Source of the DNA: Gekko japonicus
Taxonomy: Eukaryota
Assembly: GCF_001447785.1 (NCBI RefSeq)
Contig: NW_015176458.1
Coordinates: 1,612,216 to 1,675,223, forward strand
Direction of reading: 5' to 3'
Length of the DNA stretch: 63,008 bases
Shown: positions 60,564 through 63,008 of the stretch, piece by piece
Layout: every line of letters begins with the position of its first letter
How positions within the stretch are numbered: the stretch's first letter is position 1
Program-made: the position numbers and the translations under genes
Notes under the pieces: model-generated
Told to the model about the DNA's origin: nothing
Database searches by the model: none
What the model saw: the letters and a program-made list of their open reading frames with translations, nothing else

Positions 60564-61823
60564 ATGGGCCTCCCCCTCCTCTGTTCTATCAGAGTTTATT
60601 CTTCTTTAGTAAAGTGAGAATTAAATGATATGCTAAAGCTAATGATAAAAACTGTAATCTTTACTATCAATGTTGTAAAAGAAATAGGTGACTTCCTGGA
60701 GAAAGTCTCCTCTTTAATGAGCAGCCTTGGCAAAAAGGAGGCAATGACTTCTCATAACAATTATACTGACCTAGCTGCAAGCCGCTCAAAAGCTTTGCCG
60801 AGGAAAAGTAATCCAGCTCCAATGCCTTCCTCTGGTTTCCAACAGCCCAGGCAGCTAAAGGCTGACAGGGGTAAAAAGACATGGAGGCATGATGGAACGT
60901 GTGCCCTTACTTTGCAATTACACAAAATTTGCTTATCCATTTGTCATTATAAAGGACACCAAATAAATTGGTCTACCAAGAACCAAGTAACTAGGCACTT
61001 AAACTGTATTCTAAAGAAACTGCCTTCATTTGTTGACTTAATTTCACTTGAAGTTTTAAAACGTTCCAGCCAAATAGAAAGAATTGTGCTTCTTTTCAAA
61101 ACGAAGAAAGTCCCACTGTTTCCGCTGAACCACCGACAGTTTTTAAGGAAATCTGGAGTATTTCCAACTAGAGTGCTTCAAAATAACAAGGTCTCTCCCC
61201 TCCTTGCAAACCTCTCCTATAGGCCCTGTGTGCCAGAGACAGACAGAAAGACGGCTCTGGCAAAGACATCACTGTCAGGGTCCTTTATGAAACCTGCCCC
61301 AACTATAAGGTCGGAACAAATATCTACTCCACTCACAAGGGCCCCGTACCTAGAAATATTCTGTGGAAAAGGGGCTATTGACATCTTGTGCTGGCCTTTC
61401 AAAGGGAGATCAATCAGAGATTGTGGTCAGGCTAGAAGAGCTTACAGGTCAACTTCAAGGCCTGGCTAAGCAAATTGATTTTTCTGAACTAAATTGGGCA
61501 AGATCGACCAAAGAGGCTTGGAGGAGCCTTCCTCCAATGTTATGGAACAGAGTACATCTGGAGGAGAGGAAGAGATGACTTCACCATCTGCTGACCTCCC
61601 CTACATACTGGTCTTACCAAACGATGAGGAAGACAGAATCTTTAAGCTTACACACTTGACAGCACCATCGGAACCTCTAATGCAAATGCCTGATGACCAA
61701 ACATCTGAACCTCCACTCTTATCAACATCCTTGGCCTCTAACAATAGACTTCTTCAAAGAGCAAATGGATGTGTATTTGATGATAGCAGAAAAATTCTGG
61801 ACAATATTGAAATAGAGGATTGA
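60564..61823 (+). pseudogene. LINE ORF1, decayed
   Basis: ORF 60630-61469 and ORF 61494-61823 share a frame and are bridged by a shifted segment (61363-61578, coiled-coil-like IVVRLEELTGQLQGL). An in-frame upstream ATG at 60564 is followed by a TGA at 60615. The ORF ends ...NIEIED* immediately before ORF2. Confidence 0.7.
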
Positions 61824-63008
61824 CAATTATCAACACACCCATTTAGAATAATTTCATGGAATGTTGCAGGATGGTTTCGTTGTTTAACTAACTCACCAGA
61901 TAATCCTTTCCTTCATCAGAAATGTGATATTTTAGCAATTCAAGAGACATGGACAGAGCAAGAAATTACCCTACAAGGTTTTAATACTTACTTGTTGAAA
62001 GCTAAAGGAGGAAAGGGTCCGGGAAGGTTGAAAGGTGGTCTGGCAATATTAATCTCAGCCTCTCTGGAGTTTAAATGTATAGAGAAACCCCCCCTTGACT
62101 CAAGAGCTATGACAATAGTTCTGCATAGTAAAACAAAGAGTCTGATTTTAATAATTGTCTATATTCCTCCTCTTTCACTAAAAGTCCAATTAGATGAAGC
62201 TTGGAGCTCCCTAGAGAGTTATATAGTAAATCTAATTGTGGAGCATCTGGAGGCCAATGTTTTACTTCTTGAAGATTTTAATGCTCACCTTGGCCCAGGT
62301 GATCCAAGTCTGGAATTTAAATATAAGGAATTTTTTAGTAACTCGTACGACTCTTATAAATTTTCTCCTCTTCCTAGGTGTTTTAAGGATTCCACTTCAA
62401 ATGTTGCAGGTTTATATCTAGCCAAAATGGCCTATAAATTGGGTCTGTACATTTTAAATGGTACTTTCTTGGAATATTATCCGGCTGAGTTTACCTATAT
62501 GTTGGGTCAGAGACTTAGCACTATTGATTATATGTTAGCATGCACTTCTCTATTACCTCTAATAACTAACTTTAAGGTGCTTCCATTTTTTTATAGTGAC
62601 CAATTCCCACTCTTCGTCCAATTTAAGTTTCCTTCTTTATTTCAAACCACTTCCCTTCAGCCTTTACATGAAGGTTCCCAGGTATTAGGTCGTAGGGTGA
62701 GATGGTCTCCCCAGATGCAAGCAAAACTCAGAAAAGTAATTGAGGCTAAAAGTTCCCAAATTTCCAAAATTACCTACCAGGAATTTAACATACAGAGTGA
62801 CCTTCTTACATGTTATAATAGATTTGTCCAGGATTTTAAAACTATTCTATGTGAAACCAGATGCAAGCAAAACTCAGAAAAGTAATTGAGGCTAATGGTT
62901 CCCAAATTTTCAAAACTATTTATCAGGAATTTAACATACAGAGTGACCTTCTTACATGTTACAATAGAATTGTCCAGGATTTTAAAACTATTCTATGTGA
63001 ACCTAAAG
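61824..63008 (+). pseudogene. LINE ORF2 N-terminal apurinic-like endonuclease domain
   Basis: Translation from 61824 reads QLSTHPFRIISWNVAG...DILAIQETW...GRLKGGLAILI...VYIPP...LLEDFNAHLG...ILNG...EFTY...STIDY...SDQFPL. These are EEP/APE motifs, with GDFN decayed to EDFN and SDH to SDQ. A 146-bp internal duplication near 62857 causes a frameshift. Confidence 0.92.

What the first reader, a model, noticed from the sequence alone, without database searches (positions are those of the whole stretch)
61801..62000. LINE ORF1 and ORF2 are in frame and joined by a TGA-CAA-TTA leaky stop: candidate programmed readthrough
Seen: ORF1 ends ...GAG GAT TGA (61821-61823). The next codons CAA TTA TCA ACA... 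continue in the same frame into QLSTHPFRIISWNVAG...LAIQETW, the first endonuclease motifs. There is no in-frame ATG until ~62109, downstream of two catalytic motifs, so AUG re-initiation would give a truncated enzyme. Established: stop followed by CARYYA (CAA-UUA) is the tobacco mosaic virus-type readthrough context, UGA-C is the leakiest stop, and L1 uses a separate ORF2 with re-initiation instead. Inference: this family makes a low-abundance ORF1-ORF2 fusion by stop suppression, like gag-pol readthrough in gammaretroviruses. I do not know of this being documented for a reptile LINE, but I cannot search the literature.
Basis: partly seen in the sequence, partly recalled or inferred. Interest (0 to 1): 0.9.

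Follow-up and report, generated by a model that had tools for sequence, protein, structure and literature searches.

The report
Leaky stop joins lizard LINE genes
A large group of jumping genes in this reptile-like genome keeps its two genes in one reading frame, separated by a single 'leaky' stop codon, which suggests they make their enzyme by occasionally reading through the stop, a trick known from viruses.

Summary
Observation confirmed and much more general than reported. TGA-CAA-TTA at 61821-61829 ends ORF1 in frame with the endonuclease; the first ATG is at 62109. 17 of 19 other copies keep TGA (2 read GGA). In the same genome, 30 of 37 diverged lineages of this LINE clade (median endonuclease identity 35%) have an in-frame TGA-C 8-24 codons before the first catalytic motif; all 7 fully intact elements do, while 0 of 9 ORF2 terminal stops are TGA-C. 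The next codon is mostly CUA, CUG, CAA or CGG, the known readthrough contexts; 25 of 30 lineages have no Met before the motif. CARYYA itself is not conserved (3 of 30), and no 3' stem was found. Three metagenome contigs with a newt-like endonuclease show the same TGA-CU junction. Best reading (0.75): programmed UGA readthrough giving a minor ORF1-ORF2 fusion. Main rival: L1-type AUG-independent re-initiation. No translation data exist; RNA reads were too few. Ten literature searches found no non-LTR case; Repbase/Dfam notes were not searchable. An earlier scan note reports an in-frame stop in an unrelated dinoflagellate LINE (not checked here).

The parts
60618..61820 (+). ORF1 remnant of the LINE, 5'-truncated (lacks the N-terminal PIP-like box); coiled coil + RRM-like region; two private indels (61357, ~61486-61492)
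   Evidence: Copy matches begin at 60618; ORF1 profile hit 60618-61223 in the phase of the stop; indels private; fold of intact relatives
61764..61820 (+). Conserved last ~19 residues of ORF1 (NG[CS][VI]F.D...L..I...D) abutting the stop
   Evidence: Alignment A1; 21 outside ORF1 homologues matched to the profile end carry it in 20 cases, 12 of 21 end in Asp
61821..61823 (+). In-frame TGA, candidate readthrough codon
   Evidence: 17 of 19 other copies TGA; TGA-C in 30 of 37 lineages
61824..61829 (+). 3' context CAATTA (CARYYA); only the first C is clade-wide
   Evidence: 16 of 19 copies CARYYA; 3 of 30 lineages CARYYA, next codon CTA/CTG/CAA/CGG in 27 of 30
61824..62885 (+). ORF2 frame: APE-type endonuclease (SWN 61854-61862, QETW 61941-61952), no start codon before the catalytic motifs; this copy has Q for the otherwise conserved His of the SDH motif
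62109..62111 (+). First in-frame ATG (codon 96), past two catalytic motifs
62711..63001 (+). 145-bp tandem duplication (94% alike) just before an assembly gap that hides the RT region

Best explanation
The window holds a decayed, 5'-truncated copy of a two-ORF non-LTR retrotransposon (APE endonuclease, RT, C-terminal CCHC; RTEX-like). Its whole clade expresses ORF2 by programmed stop-codon readthrough. Ribosomes start at the ORF1 AUG; most stop at UGA and release ORF1p (PIP-like box, coiled coil, RRM); a few percent insert an amino acid by near-cognate tRNA because the 3' bases (C-UA, C-UG, C-GG or C-AA-YYA) weaken termination, and go on through a short variable linker into endonuclease and RT. 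The result is abundant ORF1p plus a minor ORF1-ORF2 fusion, setting the ratio as Gag to Gag-Pol. Shown here: frame, stop identity, context, absence of start codons, conservation over deep divergence. Inferred: that readthrough happens, its rate, the inserted residue, whether the fusion stays whole or is cleaved.
For: Seven fully intact elements (ORF1 432-585 aa from Met, ORF2 1113-1136 aa, ORF2 identity 33-49%) all have one in-frame TGA-C between the ORFs. ORF1 stop is TGA-C in 9 of 9 lineages with intact ORF2, their ORF2 stops in 0 of 9 (Fisher p 4e-5). From the ORF1 side: of 68 distinct contexts, 34 have ORF1 open to within 120 nt of the endonuclease Trp; 30 of 34 end in the ORF2 phase, all at TGA, 29 TGA-C; the 34 prematurely broken ones scatter 12/13/9 over phases. 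69 of 90 distinct junction contexts and 30 of 37 lineages are TGA-C against 4.9% TGAC among 1629 off-frame stops. Linker length takes 12 different values (8-24 codons) yet stays in frame. Next codon CTA 12, CTG 5, CAA 5, CGG 5, CTC 2, CTT 1; CTA/CAA/CGG 22 of 30 vs 22.5% background; all 5 Arg codons are CGG. These are the published type I/II motifs (PMC3159437); UGA-CUA alone gives 1.5% and UGA-CARYYA ~15% in an OPRL1 context in HEK293T cells (PMC4132726). 25 of 30 lineages lack a Met before the first catalytic Asn; in L216 and L220 the first Met is residue 184 and 238. Three metagenome contigs with 27-30% endonuclease identity (nearest named relative a newt protein) have Asp-TGA-CTA/CTG/CTC with in-frame upstream ORFs of 492, 86 (open end) and 460 codons.
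Against: No protein, ribosome or reporter data. No conserved 3' structure: 3 of 24 downstream 120-nt windows had z below -2, the window's was +0.2; no consensus fold and no synonymous-site peak after the stop. Lineages share ancestry, so the p-values overstate independence; for mixed clusters I took a TGA-C member as representative; the ORF1 profile was built from 10 of the tested elements. 7 of 37 clusters lack TGA-C (single or paired old, truncated or shifted copies; two, L139 and L211, read stop-ATG). 5 of 30 lineages and all three metagenome contigs have a Met before the endonuclease motif. No natural ORF1-ORF2 single-ORF relative was found (weak searches). In the LTR element Tca2 an in-frame UGA junction alone gave no readthrough in yeast reporters (PMC2194720 abstract).
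Confidence: 0.75

Rival explanations
1. Termination-coupled, AUG-independent re-initiation as proposed for mammalian L1: the ribosome ends ORF1 and restarts on the next codons, giving a separate ORF2p; UGA-C would favour slow termination or poor recycling.
For: L1 ORF2 is made by termination/re-initiation and any codon can serve as first codon (PMC4859970 passage; PMC5972666 passage). CTG follows the stop in 5 of 30 lineages and ATA/ATT codons precede the SWN motif.
Against: CTA, CAA and CGG (22 of 30) are not near-cognate starts but are the known readthrough codons; re-initiation does not need a fixed stop identity or a fixed phase over 12 linker lengths; 25 of 30 lineages never gained an ATG.
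Confidence: 0.13
2. ORF2 is made from a separate RNA (internal promoter near the junction, or splicing in which TGAC acts as branch point and a 5' exon supplies the AUG).
For: TGAC resembles a branch-point core (recalled consensus); Tca2 has a minor junction promoter (PMC2194720).
Against: 3 of 30 lineages (L102/L103, L206, L228) have no AG at all between stop and endonuclease Trp and acceptor-like YAG positions vary freely; a separate RNA still lacks an ATG and does not explain the fixed phase with ORF1.
Confidence: 0.06
3. The UGA is recoded by another route: selenocysteine insertion or A-to-I editing (UGA to UGI, read as Trp).
For: The stop is always UGA.
Against: No SECIS family matched 7 intact elements with flanks down to E 1; no duplex around the stop as editing would need; the 3' codon bias matches near-cognate readthrough.
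Confidence: 0.03
4. Chance or decay: a nonsense mutation in one long ORF, or an incidental in-frame stop with no function.
For: Two copies (L006, L013) read GGA and L006 is open across the junction.
Against: Majority codon is TGA; all intact, identical-copy young families carry it; conservation over 33-49% ORF2 identity against 0 of 9 for ORF2 stops.
Confidence: 0.02

Closest known systems
Type II stop-codon readthrough (alphavirus nsP3/nsP4, tobravirus replicase; vertebrate UGA-CUAG genes such as AQP4, OPRL1)
   Same: UGA followed by CUA or CGG (17 of 30 lineages), polymerase placed after the stop (PMC3159437, PMC4132726; passages read)
   Different: No 3' stem-loop detected; lineages switch among CUA, CUG, CGG and CAA; host is a non-LTR retrotransposon
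Type I readthrough (tobacco mosaic virus UAG-CAR-YYA)
   Same: CAATTA after the stop in the window's family
   Different: Stop is UGA; CARYYA in only 3 of 30 lineages
In-frame gag/pol or pol/env stops of MuLV, Tca2 and SIRE1 (LTR retroelements)
   Same: Structural ORF and enzyme ORF in one frame with one stop; ratio control (PMC2194720 abstract and passages)
   Different: LTR elements with a protease and, for MuLV, UAG plus pseudoknot; here no LTR-type domains were found by Pfam and no pseudoknot-like signal was seen
Mammalian L1 and silkworm SART1 ORF2 translation
   Same: Bicistronic non-LTR element with abundant coiled-coil/RRM ORF1p and scarce EN-RT-CCHC ORF2p
   Different: L1 has a 63-nt spacer and re-initiates, SART1 uses an overlapping stop-start (PMC5972666 passage); here ORF2 has no AUG and abuts one leaky stop
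RTEX (RTE-X) clade LINEs, incl. mammalian fossils L4/L5
   Same: Two ORFs, APE endonuclease, RT, C-terminal CCHC, tandem-repeat tails (features recalled; L4/L5 = RTEX from PMC5753468 passage)
   Different: No labelled RTEX sequence was available; no esterase in ORF1, which some RTEX carry (PMC3905857 passage); no readthrough report found

Membership tests
APE-type non-LTR retrotransposon (LINE) | ORF2 with N-terminal APE endonuclease | tested here: met
   PF03372 in window and relatives; APE1 matches
APE-type non-LTR retrotransposon (LINE) | Reverse transcriptase of non-LTR type | tested here: met
   PF00078 E 1e-35 in intact relatives; nearest solved structures L1 ORF2p and R2. The window copy's RT lies in an assembly gap
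APE-type non-LTR retrotransposon (LINE) | Nucleic-acid-binding ORF1, 5' truncation, simple-repeat 3' tail | tested here: met
   Model with long helix 79-114 and confident RRM-like fold 156-248; truncated copies; short tandem tails after AATAAA
RTEX clade | RT groups with labelled RTEX references | not testable with these tools
   No labelled RTEX sequence available; the clade (SH-aLRT 99) sits in a 58-row group (94) apart from rows I label RTE/BovB, L1 and CR1/L2-like from recall (quick tree)
RTEX clade | C-terminal CCHC zinc finger in ORF2 (recalled feature, shared with other clades) | tested here: met
   8 of 9 intact ORF2 match the pattern
RTEX clade | SGNH esterase in ORF1 (some members only) | tested here: not met
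   No Pfam esterase in 3 intact ORF1; model shows RRM instead. Not universal in RTEX, so not decisive
L1 clade | L1-type ORF1p RRM-CTD, AUG-led ORF2 after a spacer, poly-A tail | tested here: not met
   No spacer or AUG, repeat tails, apart from L1-like rows in the tree; RRM match to L1 ORF1p 2w7a Z 6.6, rmsd 3.3, 81 aligned is tied with many RRMs
Type II readthrough cassette | UGA followed by CUA or CGG | tested here: met
   17 of 30 lineages; the window's own family has CAA
Type II readthrough cassette | 3' stem-loop 8-9 nt after the stop | tested here: inconclusive
   None found by z-score, consensus folding or synonymous conservation; lineage-specific or long-range pairings are not excluded
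Type I readthrough cassette | CARYYA after the stop | tested here: met
   Window family 16 of 19 copies; only 3 of 30 lineages; stop is UGA, not the usual UAG
Programmed readthrough (any type) | Extended protein or above-background reporter readthrough | not testable with these tools
   Needs reporter, proteomics or ribosome profiling

The most novel reading that the evidence does not exclude
An old, still active clade of vertebrate LINEs (dozens of lineages in lizards, probably also amphibians) makes its endonuclease-RT only as a Gag-Pol-like ORF1-ORF2 readthrough fusion, a translation strategy not described for non-LTR retrotransposons. The fusion would tether the enzyme to its own particle through the ORF1 coiled coil and bring the PCNA-binding-type box, which here sits at the ORF1 N-terminus and is absent from ORF2, to the enzyme; lineages have moved freely between the type I and type II viral motifs, giving a natural allelic series of readthrough signals.
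Probability: 0.55. Interest if true: 0.85.

Novelty: new variant of a known kind. Interest (0 to 1): 0.74.

Why it matters
How LINEs make a small amount of ORF2 from a bicistronic RNA is a long-standing question, answered so far by re-initiation (L1, SART1). A clade that uses stop-codon readthrough would add a third route, convergent with retroviral Gag-Pol, and implies that a covalent ORF1-EN-RT fusion can carry out target-primed reverse transcription. Young, intact, multi-copy families make it directly testable. It also offers about 30 independently tuned vertebrate readthrough contexts, and it means annotations that start these ORF2 proteins at an internal Met truncate the endonuclease.

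Tried and rejected
Copy-specific nonsense mutation: rejected. Clade-wide CARYYA: rejected. Downstream stem: not found in 24 representatives by shuffle z-score, nor by consensus folding of 9 lineages or synonymous identity in 40-codon windows (first window 0.56, mean 0.53). SECIS or other Rfam family: none near gathering score. Expression: no RNA holder listed on record; laying 3 raw RNA runs and 1 contig set on L092 gave 84, 7, 8 reads and 21 contigs, no joints and no listed change at the stop, too thin to count for or against splicing, editing or expression. Fused single-ORF relatives: none among 5989 long candidates or the best 150 of 213 ORF1 homologues (longest 670 aa), weak evidence. Viral contigs: no relative. 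Atlas search on ORF1: no hit at 0.9. Of 48 metagenome loci, 42 had an upstream in-frame stop; 8 were TGA-C, only 3 of them with a long or open-ended in-frame upstream ORF; most others belong to other clades with an early Met. Literature: 10 searches listed no report of readthrough between ORF1 and ORF2 of a non-LTR element; four papers were not held (a clade-classification paper, Alisch 2006, Kojima 2005, Havecker 2003), so they are known only through reviews. No supplements were read. Further old lineages could not be fetched, so their junctions are unchecked.

Full report
Observation. The window reads GAG GAT TGA CAA TTA at 61815-61829. The frame after the TGA is open for 353 codons and encodes an APE-type endonuclease. 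The first ATG is codon 96 (62109), after the SWN and QETW motifs; the Asn of the first motif is the homologue, by my alignment from recall, of the L1 residue whose N14A change abolishes endonuclease activity (PMC1965478, passages). The copy is decayed: it starts at 60618, differs by 2.8% from the family majority, has two private indels in ORF1 that cancel in phase, and runs into an assembly gap after a 145-bp duplication.

Copies of the same family. Of 40 matches in the genome 30 were fetched; 19 other places cover the triplet: 17 TGA, 2 GGA (L006, L013). The hexamer is CAATTA in 14, CAGTTA in 2, other in 3 of 19. A genome-wide pattern with NNN at the stop gave 8 TGA and 1 GGA of 9. No subfamily has an ATG before the motifs; sister subfamilies have one at codon 69 and a single copy at codon 10. 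So the stop is ancestral, but within one family that is only shared descent.

The clade. Protein searches of the genome with the endonuclease and with ORF1 each scored 150 places; I fetched a subset, chosen for diversity and long open frames. Seven elements have both ORFs intact: L092 (553/1129 aa, TGA-CTG), L099 (432/1115, CTA), L103 (480/1116, CAA), L215 (433/1136, CTA), L216 (450/1117, CTC), L217 (585/1123, CTA), L223 (505/1113, CAA); their ORF2s are 33-49% identical. Many have identical copies, so they were active recently. Of 136 loci with a junction call, 122 had the Trp-Asn motif in frame within 35 codons (14 truncated or shifted loci dropped); they give 90 distinct contexts, 69 TGA-C, and 38 clusters at 65% identity, one a duplicate, so 30 of 37 lineages have TGA-C (median pairwise identity 35%; a TGA-C member was taken where a cluster was mixed). 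The 7 others are single or paired old copies, several visibly truncated or shifted; L139 and L211 read stop-ATG, and L139 has TGACTG one base out of phase. Background TGAC among 1629 off-frame stops is 4.9%. Control within elements: ORF1 stop TGA-C in 9 of 9, ORF2 stop in 0 of 9. Test from the ORF1 side: 34 of 68 distinct contexts stay open to within 120 nt of the Trp; 30 of these end in the ORF2 phase, all at TGA, 29 with C next; the 34 broken earlier scatter evenly (the profile was built from 10 of the elements, and several rows belong to one family).

Shape of the signal. The linker from stop to Trp takes 12 lengths from 8 to 24 codons, always in frame. The next codon is CTA 12, CTG 5, CAA 5, CGG 5, CTC 2, CTT 1; positions beyond +6 are free; CARYYA occurs in 3 of 30. 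CTA/CAA/CGG make up 22 of 30 against 22.5% expected (lineages are not independent). These are the type I (CAR-YYA) and type II (UGA-CUA, UGA-CGG) motifs (PMC3159437, passages). In HEK293T reporters UGA-CUA alone gave 1.5% and CARYYA about 15% in the OPRL1 context, equally with UGA or UAG (PMC4132726, abstract and passages). 25 of 30 lineages have no Met before the Trp; in L216 and L220 the first Met is residue 184 and 238. Three lineages have no AG in the linker, which argues against a splice acceptor. No 3' structure was detected and no SECIS. One element (L104) joins an L092-type ORF1 (93.5%) to an L220-type ORF2 (82%) exactly at the TGA-CT, keeping frame and stop.

Beyond this genome. Named relatives of ORF2 come from Podarcis and Anolis, consistent with a lizard host, which I did not determine. 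Among 48 metagenome loci, L237, L238 and L240 form a separate branch whose nearest named protein is from a newt; all three read Asp-TGA-CT(A/G/C) with in-frame upstream ORFs of 492, 86 (open) and 460 codons, but have long linkers (115-176 codons) that contain a Met. L234 has an in-frame TAG-G, a 316-codon upstream ORF and no Met until residue 401 of ORF2. Other relatives (L232, L233) have an early Met. The strategy is therefore probably old but not universal in the wider group.

What the element is. ORF2 = endonuclease, RT, CCHC finger. ORF1 = basic N-terminus, Q-x-x-[ILM]-x-x-[FY]-[FV] box, coiled coil, RRM-like domain (pLDDT about 90 there; Foldseek E 8e-5; best VIA Z 7.3, rmsd 3.1, 84 aligned, tied among RRMs), a helical hairpin and a conserved last 19 residues. 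The box resembles a PCNA-binding PIP box (recalled consensus); it is seen in the 8 lineages aligned and 41 of 150 outside homologues, many of which are fragments, and the strict pattern is absent from 9 of 9 ORF2s. The quick RT tree puts the clade apart from rows I label RTE/BovB, L1 and CR1/L2-like from recall. RTEX-like is the best label; membership is untested for want of references.

Mechanism. Most likely (0.75) programmed readthrough: fixed stop identity, fixed phase over changing linker lengths, a 3' codon drawn from the known readthrough set and the absence of start codons are together what a fusion product predicts. The real rival is L1-type re-initiation, in which any codon can be first (PMC4859970, passage; PMC5972666, passages); it explains the missing ATG but not the stop and context bias (0.13). 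Tca2 is a caution: its in-frame UGA junction alone gave no reporter readthrough (PMC2194720, abstract and passages). RNA reads were too few to test splicing or editing. Nothing here shows translation.

Novelty. Readthrough is known for viruses, MuLV, SIRE1 and possibly Tca2. Ten full-text searches (listings, plus passages of PMC5009743, PMC5753468, PMC3905857, PMC9004415) gave no non-LTR case. Subscription papers, Repbase Reports and Dfam notes were out of reach, and a curator may have noted it. The scan's own index held one similar note on an unrelated dinoflagellate LINE and nothing for this genome or sequence. Verdict: real, clade-wide, new variant of a known kind; interest 0.74.

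Noticed in passing
L092:1857-1943, L099, L103, L215, L216, L217, L223, L228 (ORF1 N-termini): A PIP-box-like motif (KQTKIDDFF and variants) is conserved near the ORF1 N-terminus in the 8 lineages aligned and 41 of 150 outside homologues, while the strict pattern is absent from 9 of 9 ORF2s.
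   Followed up: partly
L104:2600-4400: Chimeric element: ORF1 end 93.5% like the L092 lineage, ORF2 82% like the L220 lineage, crossover at the TGA-CT itself. One place only.
   Followed up: partly
L006 and L013 (window position 61821): Two copies from different subfamilies both read GGA for TGA and share 8 derived letters incl. a 1-nt deletion at 62336; either a mosaic or a short-lived sense-codon lineage. Unexplained.
   Followed up: partly
L234:802-5187: Metagenome LINE with a 316-codon ORF1, in-frame TAG-GCC and a 1145-codon ORF2 whose first Met is residue 401; a second candidate for readthrough or non-AUG start with a different context.
   Followed up: partly
window 62711-62855 and 62857-63001: 145-bp tandem duplication at 94% identity next to an assembly gap; may be a real duplication or an assembly artefact.
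   Followed up: no
L031:7640-9502: A 620-codon open RT frame of an RTE/BovB-like element (label recalled) lies about 6 kb beyond the window end.
   Followed up: no
L097/L157, L003, L122: Copies with the 5' part inverted or palindromic (ORF1 hit on the opposite strand; one upstream window folds at z -14), as in twin-priming inversions known from L1.
   Followed up: no
window 61764-61820 and homologues: The last ~19 residues of ORF1 are conserved across lineages though the preceding 100-200 are not; could be a docking or cleavage site or a nascent-peptide aid to readthrough. Missing in some lineages (L092, L103) that keep TGA-C.
   Followed up: partly
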